Source: Escherichia phage vB_EcoS_HZ_ZJUN2
Strand: one strand, 5' to 3'
Sequence record: PP216084
Length of the DNA: 64,000 nucleotides
Shown: in pieces, positions 12,693 to 42,541 of the stretch
How the letters are laid out: every line of letters starts with the position of its first letter
How positions within the stretch are numbered: the first letter of the stretch is position 1
Program-made: the position numbers and the translations under genes
The notes under the pieces: model-generated
Database searches by the model: none
Seen by the model: the letters and a program-made list of their open reading frames with translations, nothing else
Told to the model about the DNA's origin: nothing

Positions 12693-12723
12693 ATTTAAAC
12701 TCCTCTCTCAAATTTATGAATCT

Positions 12724-12752
12724 ATTATACAGAAATTTTTTGCACTATGCAA
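12724..12752 (-). promoter_or_regulatory. strong sigma70-type early promoter resembling T5 PN25 (minus strand)
   Basis: Minus-strand reading TTGCAT-17bp-TATAAT followed by AGATTCATAAATTTGAGAGAGGAG and the ATG; close to the classic T5 PN25 sequence from memory. Confidence 0.7.
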
Positions 12753-12760
12753 ATAAATTT

Positions 12761-13003
12761 TTACGATTCCTTGAGCAAAGAAGCAAGTTCAGCATAGACT
12801 TTATCTAACTCAAAGCCGATGCGAAGAGACACGTTTGTTTTCCGTTGTTTAAGTAACCACTCGGATATGTTAGGGATGCCAGCTAGTCTAGCAGGAACCA
12901 CCCTACATAGCTTTTCCGAAGTATCATAAACAGGAACTTTACGTTCTTTTACTGGAAACTTCCTTGTTTCCCATTTTTTATTATTCACTGTCATTTCTAG
13001 CAC
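12761..13003 (-). CDS. hypothetical protein (80 aa)
   Basis: ORF track; overlaps 3' end of the large ATPase gene. Confidence 0.45.
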   Translation of the reverse strand: MLEMTVNNKKWETRKFPVKERKVPVYDTSEKLCRVVPARLAGIPNISEWLLKQRKTNVSLRIGFELDKVYAELASLLKES

Positions 13004-15767
13004 CTAGCTCTGACATTGCTTCTTCTGCCATAGCCTTCTCTTCCTCTGTCATGAATTTGAAAGGAATTGGCATACACTCGATTTTACAATAGGTTCTGTA
13101 CCAGTCTACGATATTCTCCGTGTTCATATCTTTACCAATACCCATCATACCAAGATACATTCTAGCATATTTTGGGTTAGCACTCTGGCCTGTTTTAAGG
13201 AAGAAATCCTTTTTCTTACCTTTTAGAGCTTCTATGAATGGTTTAATGGTTACATTTGAACACTTCTTAATGTCTTCCCAGAACATCTCGTGCATCTTAT
13301 GAAAGAATGCAGCTCGATCATTTGGTTTATCTTTGATATATTGTTCAACATGCTCAACTGTTACATCTTTAATAGACTCAAGATGATAATAGCGAACAAT
13401 AAGTAGTTTAGCTTCATACGCATCAGCATGACGTGGAGCACAATAATCCGGAGTTGAATGTAGAATAGCTTTGATTCGCTCTTCCGTATACTCTTTTCCT
13501 GCACCTTCGATAGTTCCCCAGCTTTCACTGAAAATATCAATAGTTGCACCCTGATCAAGCAAGTAATAGCGTAGAGTACTAGTATAGTTTCTAGATTCCA
13601 GCTCCCTGCGACGTGCATATAGTTGCTGTGCTAACTCCAGCCAACCCTCATCAATGTTATATTGCTCAGAACCTGCGGAGAATCCACTCGTAGATTTATC
13701 AATAAAATAATAAATGTTCTGAGCGCCACGGTCGCGCCTGATTGCTTGGAAACGCATGTTTGGCGCTTGGTTTGAGGTTCTAGTGATAACGAATACGTTA
13801 TCAAAATAGTTGAAGTCAACACCACTAGTTACGGATGGACTACATAATAAGCAATCAATTTGTTGGTCAATTAGCTCATTAGTTGTGTAATCCAGGATAC
13901 GTCGAATATCTACATCAGACGTAGAGTTTGAATGGATTTCCTTAACTAACGCACCCGTATTACGACGCAATGCCATGCCCTTCTCATTCAGTTCATCAGG
14001 GCCACAATCAGATACCAGAATAGATTTCTCCCCCATCTCTAGAGAAGTCTGAAGTGCAACCCAAATACTGGATTCGTCAGGGAATTCATAAGCATGAGCT
14101 TTTGATAGCATCTTACGGTGATGATTATAAAATGCTACTGGTTTATCAAAATCAATTAGAGAACCATATGCTTCAATAGTTTCGGCACTAATATCACCAT
14201 CTGATAGAATCACAGTTTTAGCTGTCATGAGGATGTCACGTAGAACTTGAATACATTCGCGACGTTGTTTAACAACTGGGGCGAATAATAGATCATTCAT
14301 TACAGCGTCACATTCATCAATAAAGATGGTGTCTATTTGACCAATAAAACTTTTGAACTTATGCAAAGAGTGAATAGTTGTGGACATACGATCAATAGCC
14401 CCACGTTTAAAGTTGAGCATATCTACAGACTTATCATATTGTCCTGCGCTAAATTTCTTAGCGTTTGAAGATACCAGCGCTCTAGTATTTGTAACTGCTA
14501 AAAAGTTGCCAGGAAGAACACCTGCGTCCAGCCATTTAGTTACTGCCGTAGTTTTACCAGTACCAAGACTTGCCTTAACAAAGGTTATGTGGCCTTTTGG
14601 AGGCACAATGTTAATCTTCAGGTATGGAACTTCTGGTGGAGAATCCACTTCTAATTTCTTGAGTGGAACACCCTTCAGATTTAATGGAATCTCACGTTTA
14701 GAATTATTAACAAACGCTTTGAGAGCCTGCTTACGACCGTTATTAAAGTAATCTTGAATATTACGACTGTTATCTTTAGTTGCAATATATTCAGATAAAG
14801 CGGGTTTAATCTCACGTTCTAGCCATGCGAAATCAACACCATCCTCTAATGCTCTATGGTATAGTTTAGGGATAATACGCAAGTACACCCCATCCTCAGC
14901 TTCTTCCAATTCGCTGATAGTTTCTTCTACTTTATCAGACGCGATCTTTTTGCCTTTAATTTGGTCAAGTAAGGAATAGAATTCCTCTTTGAACTCCCCT
15001 CTAGTTGTTTCATAGTCAACCAGATTATTAGGCAAATTTACCTTCGAACCTTTAACATACACCAGACGTGGCTTACTCTCCGCTTTAAACGGATCAACAA
15101 TACCATCACTAAATAAAGGATCGGCAAAATAATGGAGCTGGACAGATGAATAATAAGCTAAGTCGGCAATGTCAAAACCGAATTTTTGCTTACTACTATC
15201 ATTGATAGACGTAAATAAGAACTTTAACTGACCTTGAGTTACCTTGACGTTAGATTCTAGCATTAAGTGCATTCGGATACCTGGTTTTAGGCCAGCCGAA
15301 GACGATGCATGAGCAATAAATCCTGCATCAAGAGGAAACATGTCCTCACTAATACTATTCAACATCTTAATAATGTGGCGGGCCATACCTACAAGATTAA
15401 ACTTGTCGTATCCACCGGTATCTAGGATACCATCCACGTCCATAGCAATAATATTGCTATGGTTGGATACATTAAAGTTACCTTTCTTACGCCGCACGTT
15501 ATTTTTAGGTGCAAGACATCGACCTCGTACCGCAACGATATGAGGGTCTGACGTTAAACGTCTCATAAGAGGTAACATTTCGGCAAGGCTTTGCGGGTCA
15601 TGCTCTTCTATTACATCAAATTTGAATGGCATAGAGGCTGGTTTACCTTCTGGATGCTCTTTCGAGAATCGCTTGGCAAAGGTATAATCTTCCGCTTTGA
15701 TTTCTCGCCAAATACCTGTTGCTAAATCGCGAGAAAATCCGGCGTGACCTTGAAGAATAGAAAACAC
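12981..15767 (-). CDS. large SF2-type ATPase/helicase (928 aa), possibly replication-origin-binding/primase-helicase-like
   Basis: Walker A KASLGTGKTTAV and Walker B-like IFIDECDAV in the central region. Confidence 0.65.
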   Translation of the reverse strand: MFSILQGHAGFSRDLATGIWREIKAEDYTFAKRFSKEHPEGKPASMPFKFDVIEEHDPQSLAEMLPLMRRLTSDPHIVAVRGRCLAPKNNVRRKKGNFNVSNHSNIIAMDVDGILDTGGYDKFNLVGMARHIIKMLNSISEDMFPLDAGFIAHASSSAGLKPGIRMHLMLESNVKVTQGQLKFLFTSINDSSKQKFGFDIADLAYYSSVQLHYFADPLFSDGIVDPFKAESKPRLVYVKGSKVNLPNNLVDYETTRGEFKEEFYSLLDQIKGKKIASDKVEETISELEEAEDGVYLRIIPKLYHRALEDGVDFAWLEREIKPALSEYIATKDNSRNIQDYFNNGRKQALKAFVNNSKREIPLNLKGVPLKKLEVDSPPEVPYLKINIVPPKGHITFVKASLGTGKTTAVTKWLDAGVLPGNFLAVTNTRALVSSNAKKFSAGQYDKSVDMLNFKRGAIDRMSTTIHSLHKFKSFIGQIDTIFIDECDAVMNDLLFAPVVKQRRECIQVLRDILMTAKTVILSDGDISAETIEAYGSLIDFDKPVAFYNHHRKMLSKAHAYEFPDESSIWVALQTSLEMGEKSILVSDCGPDELNEKGMALRRNTGALVKEIHSNSTSDVDIRRILDYTTNELIDQQIDCLLCSPSVTSGVDFNYFDNVFVITRTSNQAPNMRFQAIRRDRGAQNIYYFIDKSTSGFSAGSEQYNIDEGWLELAQQLYARRRELESRNYTSTLRYYLLDQGATIDIFSESWGTIEGAGKEYTEERIKAILHSTPDYCAPRHADAYEAKLLIVRYYHLESIKDVTVEHVEQYIKDKPNDRAAFFHKMHEMFWEDIKKCSNVTIKPFIEALKGKKKDFFLKTGQSANPKYARMYLGMMGIGKDMNTENIVDWYRTYCKIECMPIPFKFMTEEEKAMAEEAMSELGARNDSE

Positions 15768-16265
15768 AACAATACTCCTGTGTTGGTTAATCGAAAATCT
15801 TTTCTTTAGGACTATTCAGAAAGAATAGAACAACTATTACTACTATTTACGTAAACATCAATTATCATCAAGCAATATGAATAAGTTATCATATCTCAGT
15901 GCTGTGCTCTCTTCGCTCATATACAGAATAGAACCTAGGTCATTGGCCGCTAAGCCGATTCTATTTGTCCTCACTATCCTATTGGTAGGTGACTACTGTA
16001 CGTGCCGCCATTCGCTGCTCTTTTCGTTCGCACCCCCATATAAAGCTCTGCCTATATAACGAGCTAAATATGCACGGTTTGGATTTACCTTTCCGAATTC
16101 AGGGTACACAGATCACTTAATTGAAGATTAACTAATGCAATATAAACACTAGTAATAGTTAAAACAACCCTTAATGGGGCAGCCTAACTGTTCCGTATCG
16201 CGGATTGTAAACAAGAAAAATTAGCAAAATCAATTTTTACTAATGTCTCTCAATTCAATATAAAT

Positions 16266-16294
16266 ATTATATCAAGATTTTGGGCATCATGCAA
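16266..16294 (-). promoter_or_regulatory. sigma70-type early promoter (minus strand) with no downstream ORF
   Basis: -35 TTGCAT / 17 bp / -10 TATAAT plus ATTTATATTGAATTGAGAGAC leader; downstream 450 bp has no ORF of 60 aa or more. Confidence 0.5.
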
Positions 16295-16385
16295 GTAAAT
16301 TTTTCCCAAAGGTGCTATCAGTGTCTTTGAGCATAGAGAAAACCGAGCCAAAATGACTCGGTAATCAGAGTTCAGCTAATAAAAA

Positions 16386-17218: not shown

Positions 17219-17725
17219 TTACACCTTAAATTGCTGTAAGGATTTACACATTTCAAGATCTGGGCTAAATTCTAGCATATAGCTAACAGCTTTTAAATCT
17301 TGAAGATTTATCCCAGTCCTACCGTTGACTATAACCGTTGGATACTGATACATCATAGCACCCGCATCATCAAGCACACACCAATGTTTGAGCTTATGCT
17401 TTTCAACGAAGCGAAGAACAGAATTACCCCTAGATAATCCACCCCCAGTAAAATCCGTTGTACCAAGAAAACGATCGATAAGACCTAATCCGGTCATAAT
17501 CCGAACGTTCTCCATCTCATTTCTAACAGAGAACCAAGATGATACTCCAACAATCATTATCGGAGAAAGACGAATAAAGTCCTGAAAAGCCTTGAGAAGC
17601 GGTTTGAAAACCCAGTCACTTCCAAAGAAAATCTTTTCATCATCAGGTGCATGATGGTGGGAGATGCTCGAATTGAGCACTCCATCAATGTCCAGAAAAA
17701 TAATTGGAGTATTACTTATTTCCAT
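17219..17725 (-). CDS. HAD-superfamily hydrolase (putative phosphatase/nucleotidase)
   Basis: N-terminal HAD motif I IIFLDIDGVLN. Confidence 0.6.
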   Translation of the reverse strand: MEISNTPIIFLDIDGVLNSSISHHHAPDDEKIFFGSDWVFKPLLKAFQDFIRLSPIMIVGVSSWFSVRNEMENVRIMTGLGLIDRFLGTTDFTGGGLSRGNSVLRFVEKHKLKHWCVLDDAGAMMYQYPTVIVNGRTGINLQDLKAVSYMLEFSPDLEMCKSLQQFKV

Positions 17726-21366: not shown

Positions 21367-22258
21367 TGATTATTTCCTCGATAAATTTTATAGCTACTTC
21401 TGGCTCAATATTGAAGAATTCCGTAGCACCATCAAAATCTTTGTATTGGCAATTCTGTTCTTTAAAGTAATTATGGGCTAATTTTTCGATTTGAACTGCA
21501 TCACTATATTCTCCAATTTCAAATACTTTAATTACTTCCAGATCAGTAAGGTGACTACTAGATTTAATATGTAAAAGTCTACGCTCTGGATTGTTAGACC
21601 TACCTATTTTAACACCATGTGAAGGGCTATGCATAATATATACCTTAGTATTTTCTAAATCCCTATATTTACAGTAAGGACAACCATTTCCTCCTAACAC
21701 GGATCCTGGAGTAGCTTCCCACTGGTGCCCTGCACCACAGAGAAAGGTGGTCTTAGTATTTGCATTACTATATTCACCTACTATTCTAATATTCCTAGCA
21801 GTAAGACGATCGTTTATATTATTAATACTAAGTTTTTGTTTACTAATAGCACAAGATGGGCAGCCACTACCTCTATTGATTATACTATTAAGTGTAGTAG
21901 ACCACTCATGACCACAAACACACCTAAATTTAGTATTTATATCGGCACTATTTTTATAGCCCTCCAACAATGTAATACCACGGCCCTGTAATACAGTATT
22001 AATTTTATCAATATCTAGTTTACGGCTATTAATAGAACAAGTAGGACAATTGGTCTTTCCATTCCTAATAGCATCAAATTTAGATGTCCATTGATGACCA
22101 TATTCACACTGATACGTATGCCTATACCTAGAATTTTGATAAGGCTTATCCACCATAGTAAAACCACGTTCGGCTAGGCATTTATCCACTTCTTCTTGAG
22201 TTAATTTTTTCGGCATTCCTCTTCTCCACAGAATTTTTACACCTATTATACTAAACAT
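21353..22258 (-). CDS. zinc-finger repeat protein with C-terminal T5orf172-type (GIY-YIG-like) domain
   Basis: Three CPxC zinc-finger modules then IMHSPSHGVKIGRSNNPERRLLHIK; paralog of 10211-10876. Confidence 0.6.
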   Translation of the reverse strand: MFSIIGVKILWRRGMPKKLTQEEVDKCLAERGFTMVDKPYQNSRYRHTYQCEYGHQWTSKFDAIRNGKTNCPTCSINSRKLDIDKINTVLQGRGITLLEGYKNSADINTKFRCVCGHEWSTTLNSIINRGSGCPSCAISKQKLSINNINDRLTARNIRIVGEYSNANTKTTFLCGAGHQWEATPGSVLGGNGCPYCKYRDLENTKVYIMHSPSHGVKIGRSNNPERRLLHIKSSSHLTDLEVIKVFEIGEYSDAVQIEKLAHNYFKEQNCQYKDFDGATEFFNIEPEVAIKFIEEIINDRK

Positions 22259-22410
22259 TATCCACTATGTCAATTAAAATTTTCTTTCGTCATCTAATAC
22301 TGTAATATTTCGCGTATAAATAAATGATTATCTAGTATCATACTTCTACCTTTATAAGCAAGCAAATTTTTTATTTAAATGCAATATCATAGGCTTATTT
22401 AAAATTGTAG

Positions 22411-22439
22411 TTGCTTTTTACTGCATATACTGGTATAAT
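22411..22439 (+). promoter_or_regulatory. sigma70-type early promoter (plus strand) for phoH; start of rightward transcription
   Basis: -35 TTGCTT / 17 bp / -10 TATAAT. Confidence 0.6.
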
Positions 22440-22506
22440 ATATTTGTAAGTTGATAAACAAGATCTCTTTGTTGATCCTCTGTTAGAAGCGAAGTACACT
22501 ATAGGA

Positions 22507-23268
22507 GTGTTATTTATGGGAAAAGCACGTCAAAAAAGAGAGAACCGCAATGGTTCAAGAAAGCGTGGCAACAAATATGAGAATAACGTAATTCAGGCTG
22601 ATTTTTCTAATGATTACGCTAACCCAGTTGCTAAATCCCTAGTAGGTAAAAACCGCGAGCAAAAATCATATATCAATATGATCAAGAACAACACAGTGAC
22701 TGTGGGTATCGGTGAGCCAGGTACAGGTAAAACCTTTATCCCGTCTGTTCTTGCAGCTCAGGAACTCGTAGACATTCACTCAGATATTGAGCAAGTGATC
22801 CTCGTACGTCCTAATGAACCTCTAGGTAAGTCTCTTGGTATGCTTCCTGGTGATCTAGCAGAAAAGCTAGAGCCTTGGTTGGAGCCAATAGCTGATGGTA
22901 TGAAATGGGCCATCGGTGATCATGCCTATAAGGGATACGTCGAACGTCAGAAAATTAAATTTTTGGCTATAGAACATGCTCGTGGCAGAACTTTCAACAA
23001 CTCCTATGTAATTGTCGATGAAGCTCAGAATATTTCCGTTGAGGCAATGGTTTGTCTCCTAACTCGTGTAGGACAAGACTGCCGCTTAATTATCTGCGGG
23101 GATATAGCTCAGAAAGACATTAAAGGTGACTCAGGTCTAGCACTTCTTATGGAAGTTTATGAGAAATATGAAAATGCTCCATTCTCAATGATTGAATTGA
23201 TTGATAACGTTCGTTCTGTTGAGTCTAAAGCATTCTATGATATTTTTAAAGACATGGGGAAGGTGTAA
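22507..23268 (+). CDS. phoH: PhoH-like ATPase
   Basis: Walker A GEPGTGKTF, Walker B-like YVIVDEAQN, PhoH-like length. Confidence 0.85.
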   Translation: MLFMGKARQKRENRNGSRKRGNKYENNVIQADFSNDYANPVAKSLVGKNREQKSYINMIKNNTVTVGIGEPGTGKTFIPSVLAAQELVDIHSDIEQVILVRPNEPLGKSLGMLPGDLAEKLEPWLEPIADGMKWAIGDHAYKGYVERQKIKFLAIEHARGRTFNNSYVIVDEAQNISVEAMVCLLTRVGQDCRLIICGDIAQKDIKGDSGLALLMEVYEKYENAPFSMIELIDNVRSVESKAFYDIFKDMGKV

Positions 23269-35523: not shown

Positions 35524-35746
35524 ATATTCATAAATTAGGGAACAGCGAGCCGATTACGCTGAATGCAGAATCCCAACCGGAGCGCATTGAATAGAGTCGG
35601 TGGGTTAGTTGTAAAACTAGTACACAGGGGGCGGCAATCCCGGTTAGTGGCTAGAACGTGTAAAATGAGGCGTCTGAAACCTCTCCCCTAAACTCTTCTC
35701 TAATTTATAAATAGTGGGGTGTGGAAATCACTTATGTAGTAACACT

Positions 35747-35818
35747 GCCGATCTAGTATAAACGGTATTATCAAGCCGTAACTGGTGGAAGATGTAGGTT
35801 CGAATCCTACGATCGGTA
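35747..35818 (+). tRNA. tRNA-like element (anticodon not resolved; no encoded CCA)
   Basis: Canonical T-arm GTAGG-TTCGAAT-CCTAC and 7-bp acceptor pairing GCCGATC/GATCGGT; D and anticodon arms could not be folded cleanly by eye. Confidence 0.35.
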
Positions 35819-35857
35819 AGAACTGGATAACTGGTGCTTTTAACGTAAAAGCTTCCG

Positions 35858-35930
35858 AGGTTAGTTGCGCACTGCCTAAACCACGCGGTAGTTGGTTCCA
35901 GACTAACCAACCAGTCTGCTGAATAGTTTT
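35858..35930 (+). terminator. hairpin + T-run (terminator or processing site)
   Basis: GTTGGTT-CCAGACT-AACCAAC hairpin followed by TTTTATT. Confidence 0.3.
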
Positions 35931-36319
35931 ATTACGATTTAACTATGTCCAGGCTAAAGAAGAACTTTAGAAGGTATTCTAGGTAGTGAAGTTTTTCCTC
36001 CATATCGGAGTAGTTTTTCAAGCTACCAACAAAGTGGGAAATGCTGACATGAGAGATGTCACTAATGGTGCACAATAGCACAGGTAATTCGCGATAACTC
36101 CTGTTGAGTAGCAGCAAAAGGCGGGAAGTCATGACCCCAAGCCTAACCGAGTCCTCAATATACCGCAGGACATAACCACTAAGTCACCCTGACTTAAACT
36201 GGAAAATAATAGACGTTACTGTATTTTGTCTTGAAATACTTAATGAGTGAGACTTATGACTCTCCCGGTATCGTCTGTATTTTTAAGAGTTTTTACGAGA
36301 GTTCTTAAAAATACTTAAA

Positions 36320-36391
36320 CGGGGTGTAGTCTAAGGGAGAGGCAGGAGTCTTCTAAATTCCTTTATGCAGGTTCGAATCCTGTCACCTCGG
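36320..36391 (+). tRNA. tRNA-Arg (anticodon UCU), CCA encoded
   Basis: Manual cloverleaf: acceptor CGGGGTG/CACCTCG, D-stem GTCT/AGGC, anticodon stem GGAGT/ATTCC with loop CTTCTAA, T-arm GCAGG-TTCGAAT-CCTGT, then G-CCA. Confidence 0.6.
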
Positions 36392-36428
36392 CCAATTTTA
36401 TTAACTGTAACTAAAACAAAGGAAATAT

Positions 36429-37376
36429 ATGTTTGCTACTAAAAACACTAAAGAACTGACTTATGAGCAAAAATTGATGCGTAATATCAAACGTTGGGGT
36501 ATTGGTGTTGCAGTTGGTTTGGTAGGTTTAGTTCTGGCCCTTAACTCCTATACTGTGGTTCAAGACGGTACTGTTAAAACCCAGACTTTCCTGGGTAAAG
36601 TTGACCCTAGCCCAGTATTACCAGGCTTTCATATTGTAAATCCTTTTGCTTCTTTCGATACTTTTAGTACTAAAGATATTGCTGTAAAATTAGATAAACT
36701 TCAGGTTCCTAGCCAGGATAAGTTTAAATCCACTGTTGACCTGACTGTTATGTTGCAGTTTGATGGTTCTAAGGCACCGATCAACCGTATTAATGCAGGT
36801 ACTCAGGATCAGGCGTTAGACAAATATGTAACTGAAAAATTACTGTCTACCATCCGTGAGTTTGGTAAGTCTGTACCTAAAGCACAAGATTTGTTTGATG
36901 CTAAAATTCAAGCACAATTACAAACTGCAATTCAACAGGAAGTTGAAGAGTATGCACGCCCTTATGGTTACACAGTTAAGCAAGTGTTCCTTCAGGATAT
37001 CACATTACCACCGGTAATTATGGAACAGGTACAGAATACCAAAGTTCGTGAAGAACAAGTTAATGCTGCGAAAGCTGAATTGGCTCGTGTTGAACAAGAA
37101 GCACAGCAGAAGGTTAAACAAGCAGAAGCAGATCGTGAAGCTCGTAACAACCAAGCTATTGCAAACGAACGTGATGCAGATGCTAAACTGTATGCAGCTA
37201 AGAAAGAAGCCGAAGCTAACGCCGCTCTGCAACGTACTATTACTCCTGAGATGATTCGCTGGAAACAACTAGAAGTTGAAATGACTCGTGCTCAGAAGTA
37301 TCAAGGTGGTGTGCCGCAAACAGTAGTTGGCACTGGGTACGATGGCCGGATGATTATGGATATGCGTAACAAGTAA
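36429..37376 (+). CDS. SPFH/band-7 (prohibitin/HflK-like) membrane protein
   Basis: N-terminal TM helix (WGIGVAVGLVGLVLAL), SPFH-like core, long charged coiled-coil C-terminal region (EQEAQQKVKQAEADREARNNQAIANERDADAKLYAAKKEAEANA). Confidence 0.65.
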   Translation: MFATKNTKELTYEQKLMRNIKRWGIGVAVGLVGLVLALNSYTVVQDGTVKTQTFLGKVDPSPVLPGFHIVNPFASFDTFSTKDIAVKLDKLQVPSQDKFKSTVDLTVMLQFDGSKAPINRINAGTQDQALDKYVTEKLLSTIREFGKSVPKAQDLFDAKIQAQLQTAIQQEVEEYARPYGYTVKQVFLQDITLPPVIMEQVQNTKVREEQVNAAKAELARVEQEAQQKVKQAEADREARNNQAIANERDADAKLYAAKKEAEANAALQRTITPEMIRWKQLEVEMTRAQKYQGGVPQTVVGTGYDGRMIMDMRNK

Positions 37377-37400
37377 TTCCCACACGTAATATTCGAAGTA

Positions 37401-37440
37401 AGCCCTGTGTTCCCTGGAGAGCGCAGGGCTTTTCTGTTTT
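37401..37440 (+). terminator. rho-independent terminator
   Basis: AGCCCTG...CGCAGGGCT hairpin + TTTCTGTTTT. Confidence 0.6.
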
Positions 37441-37602
37441 AAGGTAGAGGATAAGTGTGTCTCTTTGGTCACTCAGCTATGACAAATACTTTACACTATA
37501 TCACATTGAAAATCAAGTGGGGATAACAATTTTGGGGTCTATCCACTTACCTGCTACCATTAAGCATCCTGTTATTTTCCTCTAAAAAGTTAAAAAATTC
37601 AA

Positions 37603-37631
37603 TTGCTTGAATGCTAAATTCTCTGTATAAT
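37603..37631 (+). promoter_or_regulatory. sigma70-type early promoter
   Basis: -35 TTGCTT / 17 bp / -10 TATAAT. Confidence 0.55.
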
Positions 37632-37661
37632 ATATTTATAAATTTGAGAGAGGAATCTAGT

Positions 37662-38180
37662 ATGACTGTTGATGAACTAACAGAACATCTCTTATCTAGA
37701 GGGTTTGATACAGATAAGTATCATTGCTGGTTAAGCCAGGAAGGATGGCTAACAGTCCCGTTGTATGACTTCTCTGGGATGTTGAGAGGCTATCAAACTT
37801 ATAATCCTTCTGCTCCAAAAGGTCATGGTAAGTGTCCCTTTGAAGCTAAATATTTTACTTATTCTACTACCCAGTGTGTATGGGGATTAGAAACTCTCAA
37901 TGGAGATGAAAAAGTAGTATTGATTGCTGAATCTGTATTTAAGGCAGTTGCGTTACATAACGCTGGTTATCCAGCCCTGGCAATGTTGGGTTCTTCCCCC
38001 GGAAAAGCATTATTAAAGCAATTGAAATTATTACCTTTTAAATTGGTAGCTGTAGGAGATAATGATCCTGCGGGTGAAAAATTTGCTAGAAAATTAAACG
38101 GCTTTGTTTCTCCTGTAGATGTAGATGAGATGTCTACCGAAAACTTGAAAAATTTTCTTGCTATGAAGCTAAATTTCTAA
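37662..38180 (+). CDS. TOPRIM-domain protein (about 172 aa)
   Basis: Track ORF 37611-38180 trimmed to ATG 37662 downstream of the promoter; TOPRIM-like VVLIAESVFKA...LVAVGDNDPAGEKFA. Confidence 0.55.
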   Translation: MTVDELTEHLLSRGFDTDKYHCWLSQEGWLTVPLYDFSGMLRGYQTYNPSAPKGHGKCPFEAKYFTYSTTQCVWGLETLNGDEKVVLIAESVFKAVALHNAGYPALAMLGSSPGKALLKQLKLLPFKLVAVGDNDPAGEKFARKLNGFVSPVDVDEMSTENLKNFLAMKLNF

Positions 38181-38186
38181 TATAAT
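38158..38186 (+). promoter_or_regulatory. sigma70-type promoter overlapping the 3' end of the TOPRIM gene
   Basis: -35 TTGCTA / 17 bp / -10 TATAAT; drives the two following tRNAs. Confidence 0.5.
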
Positions 38187-38200
38187 ATATTTATAAATTC

Positions 38201-38286
38201 GGAAGAATAGCATAACGGTATTGCAGCAGATTGCTAATCTGTCGGTTTGAAATATAGCCTTGTGGGTTCGATTCCCACTTCTTCCG
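38201..38286 (+). tRNA. tRNA-Ser (anticodon GCU), class II, CCA encoded
   Basis: Acceptor GGAAGAA/TTCTTCC, anticodon stem GCAGA/TCTGT with loop TTGCTAA, long variable arm, T-arm GTGGG-TTCGATT-CCCAC, G-CCA. Confidence 0.65.
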
Positions 38287-38295
38287 CCAAATTCT

Positions 38296-38370
38296 GGTTC
38301 TCAAGCTCATATGGTATGAGCACCCAGCTCATAACTGGAAGGTACGTAGGTTCGAATCCTCGGGGAGCCA
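38296..38370 (+). tRNA. tRNA with anticodon CAU (Met/fMet/Ile2 not distinguished)
   Basis: Acceptor GGTTCTC/GGGAGCC, D-arm GCTC-ATATGGTAT-GAGC, anticodon loop CTCATAA, TTCGAAT T-loop with imperfect T-stem, A-CCA. Confidence 0.5.
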
Positions 38371-38396
38371 CCAACTTAATTAGAAAGTAGTAAACT

Positions 38397-39080
38397 ATGA
38401 GAACTGATATACTCGATAGAAAGGAAGAAATAACTCAGTGGATAGCTCAGGGAAAATCTAAAGCAGAGATAGCAAGAATGCTATCTTGTGCCTCGAATAC
38501 TCTAGAAGCATATTTAGGAAAACTAGGGATAATAATTACTCCTACTAATAGGCAGCAGGATAATAAATATAAGTCTGCAACAGAGTATTTATATAATGGC
38601 AGTCCTATCTCTTCCTATAGACTAAAGAATAAAATTCTTAACGAGGGACTAAAACCACATAAATGTGAGGGTTGCGGACTAGAAAGCTGGTTAAATAAAC
38701 CAATTCCCTTAGAACTCGAGCATAAAGATGGAGACCACTATAATAATGAGTGGGACAACTTAGCCCTCCTATGCCCAAATTGTCATGCACTAACACCTAC
38801 TCATGCAGGCAAAAATATTGGCAGGTATACAGAAAGGGTGGTAAATACATGTGCTATTTGTCATTGCGAAATTAGCCCAAAGGCAACGCACTGTAAATCA
38901 TGTACCCCGAAAGAACTAACTATAAATCCAGATATTACTGCGGAGCAAATAGAGTATTGGGTATCTAAGTATTCCTGGGTTCGTGCCTCCAAAGAATTAG
39001 GATTATCTGACACGGGGTTAAGAAAAAGATATACGTCCTTAACAGGAAAAGATCCTAAAAGTATTAAGAAAAGTAGGTAG
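38397..39080 (+). CDS. HNH endonuclease (227 aa)
   Basis: HNH motif CEGCGLESWLNKPIPLELEHKDGDHYNNEWDNLALLCPNCH; C-terminal tail paralogous to ORF 41268-41849. Confidence 0.7.
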   Translation: MRTDILDRKEEITQWIAQGKSKAEIARMLSCASNTLEAYLGKLGIIITPTNRQQDNKYKSATEYLYNGSPISSYRLKNKILNEGLKPHKCEGCGLESWLNKPIPLELEHKDGDHYNNEWDNLALLCPNCHALTPTHAGKNIGRYTERVVNTCAICHCEISPKATHCKSCTPKELTINPDITAEQIEYWVSKYSWVRASKELGLSDTGLRKRYTSLTGKDPKSIKKSR

Positions 39081-39109
39081 TATAATTAACACCAAATTAA
39101 GGAAATAAG

Positions 39110-39277
39110 ATGTATAGACATCCACCTCCGCCAACACGTCGTTCTAGAGAAGTTATTCTCATGGAATTGACTAAAAACTTCAAGGCAACTCTTGAAGATA
39201 GAGATCTAGGCACGGATGAAGATATTGATTTTATTTGTAGACTATTAAAGATGAAACTGGAGAAACAACATGGCTAA
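39110..39277 (+). CDS. small hypothetical protein (about 55 aa)
   Basis: ATG with RBS AAGGAAATAAG; below ORF-track cutoff. Confidence 0.35.
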   Translation: MYRHPPPPTRRSREVILMELTKNFKATLEDRDLGTDEDIDFICRLLKMKLEKQHG

Positions 39278-39476
39278 TCCTGAAATTACCGCACAACGTT
39301 TCATGCTTAAAGGCATGATTGCTGAGGCAGGTATAACTCAAGAGGTTGCAGATTTTCATAAGCAATTTCTTGACATTATAACTCTAGCTAAAGAGACTGG
39401 AGAAAAAGAACACGGTGCAGCAATTATGGCTATAACTCTTATTAGTCTAGACTTGGCAGAAGAATCTGGAGTTTAG
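39270..39476 (+). CDS. hypothetical protein (68 aa)
   Basis: ORF track. Confidence 0.45.
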   Translation: MANPEITAQRFMLKGMIAEAGITQEVADFHKQFLDIITLAKETGEKEHGAAIMAITLISLDLAEESGV

Positions 39477-39506
39477 CTCCTCCGAACAGAATTTTTAAAA
39501 ATGTAC

Positions 39507-39536
39507 TTGCCTTTTGCTTTAAATTTCTGGTATAAT
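39507..39536 (+). promoter_or_regulatory. sigma70-type early promoter
   Basis: -35 TTGCCT / 18 bp / -10 TATAAT. Confidence 0.5.
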
Positions 39537-39566
39537 AGTTATATAAATTGATGAAGGAGTTAACGA

Positions 39567-39842
39567 ATGCAAAATCGTGTTATAGCAACTGGTATTGAAA
39601 GTGCAATCTGTAAATCCTGGGAAGGCTGGGAAGGTGAGATTGAATGGCTTTATTTCTACGATGTAGAACTTCTGCCGGAAATTAAAGCTAAATGTGTTGA
39701 AGCTGGCATGGCTCCAGATGCAAAAGCTGATATTGATATTTCAATGTCTGAACTTAAAGGTCGTGTAATTACTGTTAGTGATGGGGGCGAAGAAGTTTTC
39801 GAACTTCCATTCTCCTTAACTGTCGCTCCTAAGTTCGACTAA
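39567..39842 (+). CDS. hypothetical protein (91 aa)
   Basis: ORF track; RBS GAAGGAG. Confidence 0.5.
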   Translation: MQNRVIATGIESAICKSWEGWEGEIEWLYFYDVELLPEIKAKCVEAGMAPDAKADIDISMSELKGRVITVSDGGEEVFELPFSLTVAPKFD

Positions 39843-39878
39843 CTAATACAGCACTGAGCAAGTTCTTTAAAATTTGAC

Positions 39879-39907
39879 TTGCTCAGTGCCTTAAAACTTG
39901 GTATAAT
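39879..39907 (+). promoter_or_regulatory. sigma70-type promoter embedded in an inverted repeat
   Basis: -35 TTGCTC / 17 bp / -10 TATAAT; the -35 lies in the 3' arm of hairpin GCACTGAGCAAG...CTTGCTCAGTGC (39851-39890). Confidence 0.5.
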
Positions 39908-40041
39908 AGTTATCTAATTTGGAAAGTTCTTTTTAAGGTAGTTCTTACTTTAGCAGAGTAAACTTTCGGCAGATGGCGGCAGCCACTTTACCGATATTCC
40001 ATAGTCAGTGCCGCAAACACTGGCTACCTTAAAGAGAATTT

Positions 40042-40126
40042 GGGCGTTTATTCCGTAAGTGGTAGCGGAGGGGAATGTAAATCCCTGGTCATTGCGACTC
40101 GAGTGGTTCGACTCCATTAACGCCCA
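40042..40126 (+). tRNA. tRNA-Tyr (anticodon GUA), class II, CCA encoded
   Basis: Acceptor GGGCGTT/AACGCCC, anticodon stem GGGGA/TCCCT with loop ATGTAAA, long variable arm, T-arm GTGG-TTCGACT-CCAT, A-CCA. Confidence 0.6.
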
Positions 40127-40137
40127 CCAAATTTAAT

Positions 40138-40209
40138 GCACCTATCGTCTAATGGTTAGGACATCAGGATTTCAATCTGAGAATCGGAGTTCAATTCTCC
40201 GTGGGTGTA
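40138..40209 (+). tRNA. tRNA-Glu (anticodon UUC), CCA encoded
   Basis: Anticodon stem TCAGG/TCTGA with loop ATTTCAA, T-arm CGGAG-TTCAATT-CTCCG, acceptor GCACCTA/TGGGTGT. Confidence 0.55.
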
Positions 40210-40220
40210 CCAATTTCTGC

Positions 40221-40294
40221 ATTCCTAGAGTGTTACTGGACAGCATGTCGGTCTCCAAAACCGTACGGTCTAGGTTCGAGTCCTAGTAGGTTTG
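40221..40294 (+). tRNA. tRNA-Trp (anticodon CCA), tentative
   Basis: D-stem TGTT/AGCA, anticodon loop CTCCAAA, T-arm CTAGG-TTCGAGT-CCTAG, G-CCA; acceptor stem has two mismatches. Confidence 0.45.
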
Positions 40295-40303
40295 CCAAAA
40301 TTT

Positions 40304-40375
40304 GCACCTTTAGCTGAGATGGATTAGCGCTTGCCTGAAGAGCTTGAAAGGTTGGATCGTTACCAACGGGGTGCA
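40304..40375 (+). tRNA. tRNA (anticodon uncertain, possibly CUG)
   Basis: Acceptor GCACCTT/GGGGTGC with A-CCA, T-stem GTTGG/CCAAC with unusual T-loop ATCGTTA. Confidence 0.4.
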
Positions 40376-40395
40376 CCAAATTGAAGGAGCTGCTG

Positions 40396-40668
40396 ATGCA
40401 TCCTGAAAACTTCTTTATTTACTGCGCGGATAAGTCGCTGAAACGTAGAATTAACAAAGTCTATCATTATCGTGCTAGTCAACAGCCTTATGTATACGCT
40501 TTTGACGGTGATCACATTCCACTAGAACAATTATCTTGTGATTACATGATATTGAAGAACTTTGACGAGACGAAGATCTCAAGCGTTTATAATCGACAGA
40601 ATCCATTAACGTGGAAATATAAGAAGAAAAAGAAAGGCATCAAATTCTTAAAAAATATAGTTGCTTAG
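40396..40668 (+). CDS. hypothetical protein (about 90 aa)
   Basis: Track ORF 40381-40668; likely start ATG 40396 after RBS GAAGGAG. Confidence 0.45.
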   Translation: MHPENFFIYCADKSLKRRINKVYHYRASQQPYVYAFDGDHIPLEQLSCDYMILKNFDETKISSVYNRQNPLTWKYKKKKKGIKFLKNIVA

Positions 40669-40689
40669 TTTCCAAAAGTTCTGTATAAT
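40661..40689 (+). promoter_or_regulatory. sigma70-type promoter driving tRNAs
   Basis: -35 TTGCTT / 17 bp / -10 TATAAT; -35 overlaps the stop region of ORF 40396-40668. Confidence 0.5.
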
Positions 40690-40737
40690 AATTACATAAA
40701 TTGAACTGGAGAAGCAACATGATAGAACAAGATAAAT

Positions 40738-40810
40738 CGACCGTTGGCTGAATGGCTTAGGCGAAGGATTGCAAATCCTTTTTATGTGAGTTCAAATCTC
40801 ATGCGGTCGT
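40738..40810 (+). tRNA. tRNA-Cys (anticodon GCA), CCA encoded
   Basis: Acceptor CGACCGT/GCGGTCG, anticodon stem AAGGA/TCCTT with loop TTGCAAA, T-arm GTGAG-TTCAAAT-CTCAT, T-CCA. Confidence 0.65.
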
Positions 40811-40815
40811 CCAAT

Positions 40816-40956
40816 TTGCTGAAAGAATTGTTAAATCAATTCAGGCACGCGTAGGAACACTGTCTCCGTAATTGAAAGATGAGGCACGGTTTGGAGAGGT
40901 ATGCCGCTACACGCTACGGTGCTAACTCCGTCTAGGTGAAAATCCTAGTCAGCAAT
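40816..40956 (+). ncRNA. ~141-nt tRNA-like structured RNA candidate
   Basis: Perfect 7-bp terminal pairing TTGCTGA/TCAGCAA, T-arm-like hairpin CTAGG-TGAAAAT-CCTAG at the 3' side, internal hairpin GAATTG-TTAAAT-CAATTC; too long for a tRNA. Confidence 0.3.
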
Positions 40957-40965
40957 GTAAATTTA

Positions 40966-41048
40966 GGGTCGTTGGCTGAACGGTTTAAGCGCCGGACTGT
41001 TAATCCGTATCCGCAAGGATAAAGTAGGTTCAACTCCTACACGGCCCG
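40966..41048 (+). tRNA. class II (long variable arm) tRNA with anticodon GUU (Asn-type anticodon on a Ser/Tyr-type body)
   Basis: Acceptor GGGTCGT/ACGGCCC, Ser-like D-arm TG-GCT-GAACGGTTTAA-AGC, anticodon stem CCGGA/TCCGT with loop CTGTTAA, variable arm ATCC-GCAA-GGAT, T-arm GTAGG-TTCAACT-CCTAC, discriminator G, CCA. Confidence 0.5.
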
Positions 41049-41078
41049 CCAAATTCACTAACAACTGAGGAAATAGAT

Positions 41079-41264
41079 ATGACAACTCGTGCAATTGCTC
41101 GACTAGAAGCTGATCGTGATAATATGATTAATAATATTAAGGTTCGTGGTAATATTATTAAGGCTCTGAAAGCTGAACTTCTTGAGGAACTTCAAGGTCA
41201 AGTAGAGCGTCGTGAAGCTCTAAAAGAGGTTGAGGAAGCTATCGAAAAACTCAAGGCTGAATAA
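41079..41264 (+). CDS. small coiled-coil hypothetical protein (61 aa)
   Basis: ORF track; RBS GAGGAAATAG. Confidence 0.45.
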   Translation: MTTRAIARLEADRDNMINNIKVRGNIIKALKAELLEELQGQVERREALKEVEEAIEKLKAE

Positions 41265-41267
41265 ATT

Positions 41268-41849
41268 ATGCACGGAATATCCTTACCCATTCCAGGGTTT
41301 GAGGAGTACTTAGTAAGTTTGGATGGGTTAGTATTTAGTATCAAATCAAACAAAATACTAACCCCAATAACCAGTAATTACGGATACTTATCTATACGTC
41401 TCCATAAAAATGGTCAACAGAGAAATACCGGTGTACATAGGATTTTAGCATGTGCATTTAAGAAATTACCAAGTCTAGACTCTGAACTAGAAGTTGACCA
41501 TATTAACACAGACATTACTTATTGGGGTCTTAATAACTTACAAGTGCTCACAAAAGAGCAGCATCTAGAAAAGACTTTAAAAGATAAAGGATTTAGTAAA
41601 CTAAACCATGATAATTGTTGTAAGGATTGTGGTAAAGCTATTTCTTTAAAAGCTGAAAAATGTCAGGAGTGCTCTTCACATAAACCAAAAGATATCTCTA
41701 TAACTAAAGAAATAATCGAGGTTACAGTAAGAGAGCTAGGCTGGTCAGGTGCAGGGAGAAAGTTAAGTTATTCAGATAATGGGTTGCGTAAAAGATACAC
41801 TTCTTTAGGAGGCAATCCTAAAGAACTTAAAAAGTTAAAGGTACTATAG
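41268..41849 (+). CDS. HNH endonuclease (193 aa)
   Basis: HNH motif LEVDHINTDITYWGLNNLQVLTKEQH with Cys cluster CCKDCGK...CQEC; stop codon lies inside the 5' acceptor stem of the following tRNA-Asp. Confidence 0.7.
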   Translation: MHGISLPIPGFEEYLVSLDGLVFSIKSNKILTPITSNYGYLSIRLHKNGQQRNTGVHRILACAFKKLPSLDSELEVDHINTDITYWGLNNLQVLTKEQHLEKTLKDKGFSKLNHDNCCKDCGKAISLKAEKCQECSSHKPKDISITKEIIEVTVRELGWSGAGRKLSYSDNGLRKRYTSLGGNPKELKKLKVL

Positions 41850-41911
41850 TCTAACGGTTAGGATACTCCCCTGTCACGGGAGAGGTAGGGTTTCGATTAC
41901 CCTTAGTACCG
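41840..41911 (+). tRNA. tRNA-Asp (anticodon GUC), CCA encoded
   Basis: Acceptor GGTACTA/TAGTACC, anticodon stem CTCCC/GGGAG with loop CTGTCAC, T-arm GTAGG-GTTTCGATTA-CCCTT region, G-CCA. Confidence 0.65.
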
Positions 41912-41931
41912 CCAAATAAGGTAGGTTAGCT

Positions 41932-42090
41932 ATGGAACGTAGGGAGTTTACTCCAGAAGAGATAGAGCAGATAAAAGAATCTGCTATGAAAAATGCTAGA
42001 ATATCTCTGTCACTGGAAGGTATCATTATTAGTGATGTAAACTTTGAAAAAATCAAAGCCATAGCTGATGAACTGGAAAAAGTAATTTAA
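41932..42090 (+). CDS. small hypothetical protein (about 52 aa)
   Basis: ATG with RBS AAGGTAGG; below ORF-track cutoff; sits between two tRNAs. Confidence 0.35.
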   Translation: MERREFTPEEIEQIKESAMKNARISLSLEGIIISDVNFEKIKAIADELEKVI

Positions 42091-42091
42091 T

Positions 42092-42164
42092 ACATCCATA
42101 GCTCAATGGTTAGAGCTACCGCCTCTTAAGCGGAGGGTTCTAGGTTCAAGTCCTAGTGGGTGTA
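42092..42164 (+). tRNA. tRNA-Lys (anticodon CUU), tentative
   Basis: D-arm GCTC-AATGGTTAG-AGC, anticodon stem CCGC/GCGG with loop CTCTTAA, T-arm CTAGG-TTCAAGT-CCTAG, A-CCA. Confidence 0.5.
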
Positions 42165-42193
42165 CCAAATTAAACTAGCACGAGAAATATGCT

Positions 42194-42541
42194 ATGATTA
42201 ATGCTAAAGAAGAATTGTTACTTGCCCTAAAGAATACTAATTCTGAAGTTAAGTGTATTAAGATAGAATTCGGTTATTATGGGGATAAAGAAGTTTGGGT
42301 ATTACCCGTAGGTTATACAGAAAAAGATATTGAAGATTTTCTAAATAATCTAGACTTTAAATATGATTCTGGTTATGGTGGGCAATTGCTTTATGGTAAC
42401 GTGTGGTTTACTGATGGAACTTGGTTAGAACGCGGTGAATACGACGGTTCTGAATGGTGGGAATATAAGGCTACGCCAGCAATCCCAGAAGAATGCCGAA
42501 CAATTAATGGTGAAGTAGATCATACATTACTACTAAATTAA
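42194..42541 (+). CDS. hypothetical protein (115 aa)
   Basis: ORF track. Confidence 0.5.
   Translation: MINAKEELLLALKNTNSEVKCIKIEFGYYGDKEVWVLPVGYTEKDIEDFLNNLDFKYDSGYGGQLLYGNVWFTDGTWLERGEYDGSEWWEYKATPAIPEECRTINGEVDHTLLLN

What the first reader, a model, noticed from the sequence alone, without database searches (positions are those of the whole stretch)
15768..16385. 600-bp gene-free interval with an outward-facing early promoter and no ORF
Between the large SF2 ATPase and the paralog pair there is a canonical minus-strand promoter (16266-16294) whose transcript would cover ~450 nt with no ORF of 60 aa or more (longest about 21 codons, poor RBS). Its position next to the replication ATPase makes a replication origin or regulatory/ncRNA locus plausible.
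Basis: inference. Interest (0 to 1): 0.45.

Follow-up and report, generated by a model that had tools for sequence, protein, structure and literature searches.

The report
Large structured RNA before T5 initiator
The "empty" 618-bp gap in this T5-like phage encodes a roughly 490-nt, intricately folded RNA. It starts at a strong early promoter just ahead of the replication-initiator helicase gene, its fold is kept by compensatory mutations across T5-like phages, and it matches no catalogued RNA family. It is probably an undescribed regulatory or replication-linked RNA.

Summary
The window is a T5-like phage (97-98% identical to T5). The gap 15768-16385 is real and unusual. The promoter at 16266-16294 is real and is a T5 early promoter of the PN25 kind. 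It is not outward-facing: the terminator, the promoter, the gap and both flanking genes all lie on the minus strand, so the transcript runs 492 nt into the GTG start of the D2/OBP helicase gene. No small ORF in the gap is conserved.

The gap encodes a large structured RNA. Its parts are a 5' hairpin, a conserved single-stranded block, a long-range closing helix about 300 nt across, a multi-helix core and an invariant UUAGCG hexaloop hairpin. Compensatory changes are frequent within and between lineages (7 of 150 pairs within type A; 26 of 35 pairs across four lineages). Folding is strand-specific. A covariance model built from one lineage finds the others at the right place and strand. Rfam 15 has no match, and I found no paper describing it.

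A long gene-free stretch precedes this gene in every Demerecviridae lineage examined. In Aeromonas phages it is a structured RNA of about 1.26 kb bounded by a promoter and a terminator.

Function is inferred. The most likely role is RNA-level control of the initiator gene. An origin-linked transcript or a trans-acting RNA remain live rivals.

The parts
16335..16362 (-). Intrinsic terminator that ends the upstream operon (stem ACCGAGTC/GGCTCGGT followed by a U tract)
   Evidence: The stem covaries between lineages: Klebsiella GACCAGAGG/CCTCTGGTC, My1 GTCCGAGTC/GACTCGGAC.
16266..16305 (-). Early sigma-70 promoter: an A/T-rich upstream block, -35 TTGCAT (16294-16289), a 17-nt spacer and an extended -10 TGaTATAAT (16274-16266)
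   Evidence: Read directly. Annotated as a putative early promoter in T5. It shares the PN25-type signature, found 3 times against 0.2 expected. Its position is conserved across lineages.
15768..16259 (-). The whole predicted RNA: 492 nt from the predicted start (A at 16259) to the base before the GTG of the helicase gene
   Evidence: The sense strand folds at -126.8 kcal/mol, z = -3.15, with 0 of 100 shuffles as good. The antisense strand folds at -98.6 kcal/mol, z = -1.44. The consensus structure has 150 pairs, and 99.9% of cells are paired.
16213..16251 (-). 5'-terminal hairpin HP1. It begins with the conserved initial transcribed sequence UUGAGAG (16253-16247).
   Evidence: Helix 1. The inner stem has a different sequence but stays complementary in Klebsiella, My1 and L109.
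16176..16198 (-). Conserved block CS1, AUACGGAACAGUUAGGCUGCCCC. Its 5' half is predicted to be unpaired.
   Evidence: Invariant in types A and B. Nearly identical in My1 and L109, and 18 of 23 bases identical in Klebsiella.
16106..16161 (-). 5' strand of the long closing rod (helices 4-6)
   Evidence: The closing helix differs by lineage but stays complementary: A TAACTATTACTA/TAGTAATAGTTG; B AACTGTTAC/GTAACAGTT; My1 16 bp (0 of 1000 shuffles); L109 13 bp (18 of 1000).
15908..16105 (-). Central multi-helix domain. Its sequence is type-specific. In the window it is type A, the divergent version.
   Evidence: Model R2, built without any type-A sequence, gives its best hit in the window at 15918-16004 on the minus strand (E = 0.025). 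It gives a full-length hit in the type-A relative L035 (E = 0.0012).
15927..15965 (-). CS2 module: a flanking helix (AAUAGAAUC/GGUUCUAUU) enclosing the hairpin GGC-UUAGCG-GCC (15956-15945; hexaloop at 15953-15948)
   Evidence: The hexaloop is invariant in every enterobacterial lineage and is also present in Aeromonas phages. The flanking helix has a different sequence in each lineage. Helices 5 and 6 show 8 of 11 pairs with changes on both sides.
15831..15907 (-). 3' strand of the closing rod, including a small hairpin (15874-15895)
15812..15828 (-). CS3 hairpin CUAUUC-UUUCU-GAAUAG, immediately 3' of the closing helix
   Evidence: Helix 19. The Klebsiella version is CUAUC-CUU-GAUAG.
15780..15811 (-). 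A/U-rich linker between the structured domain and the ribosome-binding site. It is the most variable stretch of the leader.
   Evidence: Conservation lines.
12981..15779 (-). Shine-Dalgarno AGGAG (15779-15775), GTG start (15767-15765) and the 928-aa D2/OBP SF2 helicase gene
   Evidence: Matches Pfam Herpes_ori_bp and PHROG 'replication origin binding'. The T5 protein was characterised as the D2 bipolar helicase (PMC3632103).

Best explanation
The gap is the template for a large, highly structured RNA of about 390 folded nucleotides within a 492-nt leader.

**What is shown**
- A terminator closes the upstream operon.
- A promoter with strong consensus features follows it.
- The sequence downstream folds into a 5' hairpin, a conserved single-stranded block (CS1), a closing helix about 300 nt across, a multi-helix core and a hairpin with an invariant UUAGCG loop.
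- This fold is maintained by selection on the sense strand.

**What is inferred**
- Host RNA polymerase starts at about 16259 early in infection, and the RNA is made as the 5' part of the D2/OBP mRNA.
- Most likely mechanism (about 40%): the folded domain acts at the RNA level on expression of the initiator gene it always precedes. A phage or host factor, possibly a replication protein, would bind the invariant loop and CS1 and so set transcript stability, read-through or translation.
- Relatives seem to pair the same domain with different downstream arrangements: direct read-through in T5, a terminator in Aeromonas phages and a second promoter in L111. This pattern is expected of a cis-acting leader.

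That it is a functional RNA of some kind I put at about 0.9.
For: **Structure within lineages**
- Type A (16 sequences): 7 pairs with compensatory changes on both sides, against 0 when the 3' partners are slid by -3 to +2. 99.9% of cells are paired.
- Type B (9 sequences): 6-7 compensatory pairs.

**Structure across lineages**
- A model built from type B alone finds full-length matches at the right place and strand in L109 (E = 3e-5), Klebsiella (E = 6e-5) and My1 (E = 1.5e-3).
- In the resulting alignment 26 of 35 pairs show changes on both sides, against 4-10 in slid controls and 0 of 500 shuffles.
- The closing helix and the CS2 flanking helix have different sequences in each lineage but stay complementary.

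**Strand**
- Sense folds at -126.8 kcal/mol (z = -3.15); antisense at -98.6 (z = -1.44). The sense strand is also the more stable one in five other lineages.
- Ten one-sided changes keep pairing through G.U, against one of the A.C type.

**Boundaries match transcription signals**
- A promoter sits at the 5' edge in all lineages.
- A terminator sits at the 3' edge in Aeromonas phages.

**Other support**
- Not coding.
- A long gene-free stretch lies directly upstream of, and co-oriented with, the helicase gene in four further Demerecviridae lineages annotated in GenBank: My1, two Vibrio lineages and Aeromonas.
- Insertions in relatives avoid the folded core.
Against: - There is no transcript data. 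The start site and the RNA itself are predicted.
- The ribosome-binding site is not consistently sequestered by the large domain. In the window the Shine-Dalgarno is predicted to be mostly unpaired, so no clear expression platform is seen.
- L111/L112 have a perfect consensus promoter between the RNA and the gene. Aeromonas phages have a terminator there. Both fit an independent RNA gene as well as a leader.
- The window's own version (type A) lacks two modules conserved in other lineages: GAGAAGUG and the GUUGCCAC loop.
- The model does not reach Vibrio or Aeromonas sequences, so homology across the whole family is not shown.
- A fold of 390 nt is far larger than known protein-binding operators.
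Confidence: 0.5

Rival explanations
1. Origin-linked transcript. The locus is, or activates, a T5 replication origin. Transcription from the strong promoter opens the DNA, or the folded RNA forms a persistent hybrid that primes synthesis. The adjacent D2/OBP helicase then acts there.
For: - The adjacent gene encodes a relative of the herpesvirus origin-binding protein, which has been proposed as the T5 initiator (PMC3632103).
- The locus lies at about 48.5% of the T5 genome, and T5 origins are reported near the centre (bioRxiv 10.1101/866236).
- The arrangement is a promoter followed by an A/T-rich start region (85% A+T at 16228-16272).
- The RNA centre and the N-terminal half of OBP diverge together between type A and type B phages, while the C-terminal part of OBP and the upstream gene stay nearly identical.
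- From my own knowledge, origin transcripts have precedents: ColE1 RNA II, T4 ori(uvsY) and herpesvirus oriLyt RNAs.
Against: - No iterons are conserved across lineages, and there are no DnaA boxes.
- The match to the UL9 box occurs only in type A.
- Selection acts on RNA pairing with G.U pairs, not on double-stranded sites.
- Co-divergence with OBP can be simple linkage.
- The published origin mapping is of low resolution, and I could not read it.
Confidence: 0.2
2. Independent trans-acting RNA. The folded domain is released, or separately terminated, and works away from its gene. It could be a cofactor or scaffold for the OBP helicase or another phage protein, or a decoy against a host factor.
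For: - In Aeromonas phages the structured region, about 1.26 kb, is bounded by its own promoter and a strong terminator.
- L111/L112 give the helicase gene its own perfect promoter downstream of the RNA.
- The linker to the ribosome-binding site is the least constrained part of the leader.
- The size and complexity resemble large noncoding RNAs more than operators.
- The central cassette has been swapped between close relatives.
Against: - No terminator or known processing signal follows the fold in T5, Klebsiella or My1 types.
- Strict synteny with one gene is unusual for a free-acting RNA, unless that gene's product is its partner.
- No partner has been identified.
Confidence: 0.25
3. Strand-specific single-stranded DNA structure, such as a priming or primosome-assembly signal. 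It would be formed by the displaced sense strand rather than by RNA.
For: RNA and same-sense single-stranded DNA share the same sequence, so covariation alone cannot separate them.
Against: - About 15-20% of pairs are G.U, and these are weak in DNA.
- The structure begins exactly at a promoter. In Aeromonas phages it ends at a terminator.
- Known signals of this kind are far smaller (my own knowledge).
Confidence: 0.03
4. Nothing functional beyond the promoter: a decayed gene, a spacer or missed small protein genes.
For: Small ORFs exist on both strands. Annotators of Vibrio phage D233 called six tiny ORFs in the equivalent gap.
Against: - None of the ORFs is conserved, even at 92% nucleotide identity.
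- Substitutions are compensatory in helices.
- The gap persists across subfamilies.
Confidence: 0.02

Closest known systems
Structured cis-regulatory 5' leaders (riboswitches, T-boxes, and phage translational operators such as those of T4 genes 32 and 43). Comparison from my own knowledge.
   Same: It lies between a promoter and one specific gene, in the same orientation. It has a conserved fold with covariation and invariant unpaired nucleotides. Relatives have different downstream arrangements: read-through, a terminator or a second promoter.
   Different: It is 2 to 10 times larger. No ligand or binding protein is known. No mutually exclusive terminator or anti-Shine-Dalgarno switch was found in the window. 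It matches no Rfam family.
ColE1 RNA II and other origin transcripts (T4 ori(uvsY)/ori(34) R-loops, herpesvirus oriLyt RNAs). Comparison from my own knowledge.
   Same: It is an untranslated, folded transcript of about 500 nt made from a strong promoter, and it sits next to replication functions. The neighbouring protein is related to the herpesvirus origin-binding protein.
   Different: No origin has been mapped here. There is no RNase H or hybrid-forming signature that I could test. There is no antisense partner like RNA I. The transcript continues into a protein gene.
Large phage-associated noncoding RNAs of unknown function (GOLLD, ROOL) and other large bacterial RNAs (OLE, HEARO, raiA)
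   Same: It is several hundred nucleotides long, multi-helix and phage-encoded. It was recognised only through covariation, and its function is unknown.
   Different: It does not match any of their covariance models, even at E up to 10 on the window's gap and E up to 0.5 on ten related loci. GOLLD and ROOL sit near tRNA genes; this RNA sits before the initiator helicase gene and is fused to its mRNA in T5.
HK022 put and lambda nut antitermination RNAs. Comparison from my own knowledge.
   Same: It is a structured RNA just downstream of an early promoter and ahead of a long early operon. In Aeromonas phages a terminator lies between the RNA and the gene.
   Different: put is about 70 nt. I did not search systematically for boxA/boxB elements, and none stood out when I read the sequence. 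An effect on polymerase cannot be tested here.

Membership tests
Any Rfam 15 family (4227 models, including riboswitches, group I/II introns, RNase P, tmRNA, 6S, GOLLD, ROOL, OLE, HEARO) | A covariance-model match at or near the family's gathering score | tested here: not met
   The window at gathering threshold gives only tRNAs. The gap at E up to 10 gives only noise of 18 bits or less. Ten related loci at E up to 0.5 give nothing in the homologous regions.
T5 early (sigma-70, PN25-type) promoter | A -35 element, a 17-nt spacer, an (extended) -10, an A/T-rich upstream block and the initial transcribed sequence UUGAGAG | tested here: met
   TTGCAT-17-TGaTATAAT, with upstream AAAAATTTAC and downstream TTGAGAG. 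The signature is shared with the annotated PN25 promoter. Promoter activity itself cannot be tested here.
Structured functional RNA (generic) | Base pairs kept through compensatory changes, more often than in controls, on one strand | tested here: met
   (with slid and shuffled controls). (sense against antisense). (cross-lineage detection by a model built from one lineage).
Riboswitch-like cis-regulator | An expression platform (a terminator or Shine-Dalgarno sequestration) that competes with the sensing fold | tested here: inconclusive
   In the window the Shine-Dalgarno is predicted to be mostly unpaired. Its partners differ by lineage. A terminator lies downstream of the fold only in Aeromonas phages.
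Riboswitch-like cis-regulator | A defined ligand or binding factor | not testable with these tools
   The invariant UUAGCG loop and CS1 are candidate contact sites only.
Iteron/DUE-type replication origin | Repeated initiator-binding sites conserved among relatives | tested here: not met
   The AGAATAGAAC repeat (3 copies) is confined to type A, and two copies are strands of RNA helices. There are no DnaA boxes. The GTTCGCAC match occurs only in type A.
Iteron/DUE-type replication origin | Replication initiates at the site | not testable with these tools
   The only available statement is that T5 origins lie near the genome centre (bioRxiv 10.1101/866236). The primary paper is not held.
Self-splicing intron (group I or II) | Interrupts a gene, with exons on both sides, and has the core conserved elements | tested here: not met
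   It is flanked by a terminator and promoter on one side and a complete ribosome-binding site and start on the other. No match to the intron models.
Small protein-coding gene(s) | An ORF conserved in relatives, with a coding substitution pattern | tested here: not met
   All ORFs of 25 aa or more on the window's sense strand are lost in L035. The only cross-lineage peptide matches were short and faint. Several overlie the nucleotide-conserved 5' part of the leader, without a conserved start codon or reading frame.

The most novel reading that the evidence does not exclude
T5-like phages carry a previously unrecognised class of large structured RNA, about 430 nt in T5 and about 1.26 kb in Aeromonas phages. 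It would be an obligate partner of the herpes-UL9-like initiator helicase. It could be the RNA that specifies or primes the phage origin, or a cofactor bound by the N-terminal half of OBP, which co-diverges with the RNA.
Probability: 0.3. Interest if true: 0.85.

Novelty: new variant of a known kind. Interest (0 to 1): 0.68.

Why it matters
T5 is a classical model phage. Its replication origin and the way its initiator gene is controlled are still unknown.

A conserved folded RNA of 400 nt or more beside the initiator gene gives both questions a concrete, mutable target. The candidate sites are the UUAGCG loop, CS1 and the closing helix.

Large structured RNAs without an assigned function are rare. 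Several earlier ones turned out to be ribozymes or RNA-protein machines. A family that spans E. coli, Salmonella, Klebsiella and Pectobacterium phages, and probably Aeromonas phages, would be a useful addition to RNA family databases. It would also stop annotators calling spurious small ORFs in this gap.

Tried and rejected
- **Rfam:** searched at gathering and permissive thresholds; no match.
- **Coding:** the small ORFs are not conserved.
- **Origin signals:** no DnaA boxes. The repeats and the 9-nt match to HSV UL9 Box I (CGTTCGCAC, 16025-16033) are specific to type A, so I judged them coincidental.
- **Shine-Dalgarno sequestration by the large fold:** not consistent across lineages.
- **Loop-loop pairing of UUAGCG with UGCUAA:** the partner is not conserved in position.
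- **Pattern scans of IMG/VR:** CS1 added one new lineage (L067/L109) plus chance coding hits. AGAAGTG...CTTAGCGG gave almost only chance hits.
- **Structure-aware MAFFT:** not installed, so I made cross-lineage alignments with covariance models instead.
- **Vibrio phages:** too little diversity among the held sequences to test covariation. The models do not reach Vibrio or Aeromonas.
- **Literature:** word and sequence-string searches found no description of this RNA. Bourguignon 1976, on T5 origins, is not held. The retron paper concerns D10, not D2.
- **Time-out:** one script timed out before folding L111, Vibrio and Aeromonas.

Full report
**Identity of the window and the locus.** The region is 97-98% identical to phage T5, in reverse orientation (T5 AY543070 58.8-59.7 kb). 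In T5 records the gap lies between T5.107 and T5.108. T5.108 is annotated as a 'replication origin binding protein'. The records annotate only a putative early promoter and a terminator in the gap. T5.108 is the 928-aa SF2 helicase. It matches Pfam Herpes_ori_bp and was studied as the D2 bipolar helicase, a proposed initiator (PMC3632103). The two upstream paralogs are DUF7415 proteins.

**The observation.**
- The gap 15768-16385 is real. It is exceptional in a genome where neighbouring genes are at most about 55 nt apart.
- The promoter is at the stated place: TTGCAT, 17 nt, TGaTATAAT.
- It carries the PN25-type signature of a -10 followed by UUGAGAG. This signature occurs 3 times in the window against 0.2 expected, and one copy is PN25 itself.
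- Everything here is on the minus strand. The order is: terminator 16362-16342, promoter, 492 nt, then AGGAG and the GTG of the helicase gene. The promoter is therefore not outward-facing, and its transcript is the leader of that gene.
- ORFs of 38, 38 and 26 aa (sense) and 60 and 43 aa (antisense) exist. They vanish in a relative with 92% identity and are not shared between lineages.

**What is in the gap.**
- Thirty-one versions of the gap from related phages fall into sequence types. Type A includes T5 and the window. Type B covers many Salmonella and E. coli phages. Type C is found in Klebsiella phages.
- The flanks are nearly identical between A and B, but the centres cannot be aligned. 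The overall length stays the same, and conserved islands remain.
- The islands are ACGGAACAGUUnGGCUGC (CS1), GGCUUAGCGGCC (CS2) and GUUCUAUUC-loop-GAAUAG (CS3).
- Further lineages were added: Pectobacterium phage My1, a My1-like contig (L067/L109), Providencia phages, and L111/L112.

**Evidence for an RNA structure.**
1. *Within type A.* For 16 sequences with 98% mean identity, the consensus fold has 150 pairs and 99.9% of cells are paired. Seven pairs changed on both sides. The count was 0 when partners were slid by -3 to +2, and 1 at +3. Ten further changes are one-sided and keep pairing through G.U. Only one is of the A.C type that would favour the other strand.
2. *Within type B.* For 9 sequences, 6-7 pairs are compensatory.
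3. *Long-range closing helix.* It sits at the same position in each lineage, with arms about 290-307 nt apart, but with different sequences: A TAACTATTACTA/TAGTAATAGTTG; B AACTGTTAC/GTAACAGTT; My1 16 bp (0 of 1000 shuffles); L109 13 bp (18 of 1000).
4. *CS2.* It is a short hairpin with an invariant UUAGCG hexaloop. Its 3-bp stem covaries (GGC/GCC, GAC/GUC, GCC/GGU, AGC/GUU). The helix that flanks it differs in every lineage.
5. *Covariance models.* A model of a 133-nt sub-domain built from type B alone found full-length matches at the right site and strand in L109 (E = 3e-5), Klebsiella (E = 6e-5) and My1 (E = 1.5e-3). In the resulting alignment 26 of 35 pairs changed on both sides, against 4-10 in slid controls and 0 of 500 shuffles. 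That alignment is fitted to the model, so it leans toward the structure. A second model found type A, which it had never seen: L035 at E = 0.0012, T5 at E = 0.03, and the window's best hit at 15918-16004 on the minus strand, E = 0.025.
6. *Strand.* Sense folds at -126.8 kcal/mol (z = -3.15); antisense at -98.6 (z = -1.44). Five other lineages also fold more stably in sense, by 13-45 kcal/mol.
7. *Insertions avoid the fold.* HNH endonuclease genes sit upstream of the -10. An insertion of about 170 nt precedes the terminator. An element of about 97 nt with 8-bp direct repeats sits between the 5' hairpin and CS1.

**Breadth.**
- A long gene-free stretch directly upstream of, and co-oriented with, this helicase gene is present in four further lineages of the family: My1 590 bp, Vibrio Brizo 712 bp, and Aeromonas TS3 1590 bp. 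In Vibrio D233 annotators filled the stretch with tiny ORFs.
- Two Aeromonas phages, 65% identical in this stretch, share a consensus fold of -277 kcal/mol with 79 compensatory pairs. Column-shuffled controls gave -94 to -108 kcal/mol and 34-36 pairs.
- That region runs from an extended -10 promoter to a strong terminator and contains two UUAGCG hairpins.
- L111/L112 have perfect consensus promoters on both sides of the structured region.
- My models do not reach Aeromonas or Vibrio sequences. Homology across the whole family is therefore suggested, not shown.

**What it is not.**
- It matches none of the 4227 Rfam families.
- It is not coding.
- It is not an intron, because complete transcription and translation signals flank it.
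- Origin-type DNA signals are absent or specific to type A.

**How it probably works.**
- *Shown:* the fold, its strand, and its fixed position between a promoter and the initiator gene.
- *Inferred:* transcription from about 16259.
- *Cis-acting RNA (about 40%):* I favour an RNA that tunes expression of the helicase gene through a factor binding the invariant loop and CS1. The reasons are that the domain always precedes this gene and that relatives attach different downstream arrangements to it. The weakness is that no clear switch was found, and the Shine-Dalgarno is predicted to be open in the window.
- *Trans-acting RNA or helicase cofactor (about 25%):* this fits the Aeromonas and L111 layouts and the unconstrained linker.
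- *Origin-linked transcript (about 20%):* this fits the neighbouring gene and the mid-genome position (bioRxiv 10.1101/866236). It also fits a mosaic block in which the RNA centre and the first 500 aa or so of the helicase diverge together between types A and B (80-94% identity). The last third of the helicase is 98-100% identical, and the upstream gene stays similar in both types. Linkage alone could explain that block.

**Novelty.** I found no description of this RNA in the searchable literature. Subscription-journal papers are not covered, so prior mention cannot be excluded.

Noticed in passing
window 35746-45915 (+): A cluster of 21-22 tRNA genes, typical of T5-like phages.
   Followed up: no
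L014:2460-2548, L019:2458-2546, L034:2457-2545: An insertion of about 97 nt, flanked by the 8-bp direct repeat TTTTTCTT, lies between the 5' hairpin and CS1. It occurs in three phages that carry either RNA type. It was found only at this site in the loci held. It could be a small mobile element, or an ancestral segment lost in other phages by deletion between the repeats.
   Followed up: partly
L009, L013, L026, L017 (about 1875-2500 of each locus); Salmonella phage S132: Insertions of about 500-630 bp, annotated in S132 as an HNH homing endonuclease, replace the terminator and -35 region. Homology resumes exactly at the -10, so the RNA is left intact.
   Followed up: partly
window 16025-16033 (+): CGTTCGCAC equals the first 9 nt of HSV-1 UL9 Box I (recalled from memory). 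The 8-nt core GTTCGCAC within it occurs once in the 64-kb window. It is absent from types B, D and D'. Types C and E have only a one-mismatch form elsewhere. I judged it a coincidence.
   Followed up: yes
window 15754-15763, 15822-15831, 15925-15934 (+): Three direct copies of AGAATAGAA(C/A). One lies in the first codons of the helicase gene, and two are strands of RNA helices. They are not conserved in type B.
   Followed up: partly
window 12981-16105 (-), compared with L023 and L021: A mosaic block: the RNA centre and the first 500 aa or so of the helicase diverge together between type A and type B phages (80-94% amino-acid identity). The last 300 aa are 98-100% identical, and the upstream DUF7415 gene is 93-97% identical in both types.
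   Followed up: partly
L039:970-2232 and L122:970-2232: Aeromonas T5-like phages have a structured region of about 1.26 kb between a promoter and a terminator. It includes a GUAA-capped hairpin whose stem covaries between the two phages, and two UUAGCG hairpins. This is larger than most known bacterial noncoding RNAs.
   Followed up: partly
window 17219-17725 (-): A 168-aa protein with a HAD_SAK_2 domain ('Swiss Army Knife RNA repair' HAD domain) lies just upstream of the two DUF7415 paralogs.
   Followed up: no
window 12705-12729 (-) and 37626-37650 (+): Two further promoters carry the same -10 plus UUGAGAG signature. The first is the classical PN25 promoter.
   Followed up: no
L038:1721-2345 (Vibrio phage D233): Annotators called ORFs of only 29-55 aa in the stretch upstream of the helicase gene. 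These are probably overcalls in a noncoding region.
   Followed up: no
window about 22000-23000: The cumulative GC skew reaches its minimum here, where the long ORFs are still on the minus strand just upstream (to about 21.4 kb). I did not check the orientation of genes beyond it. There is no skew feature at the finding itself.
   Followed up: no
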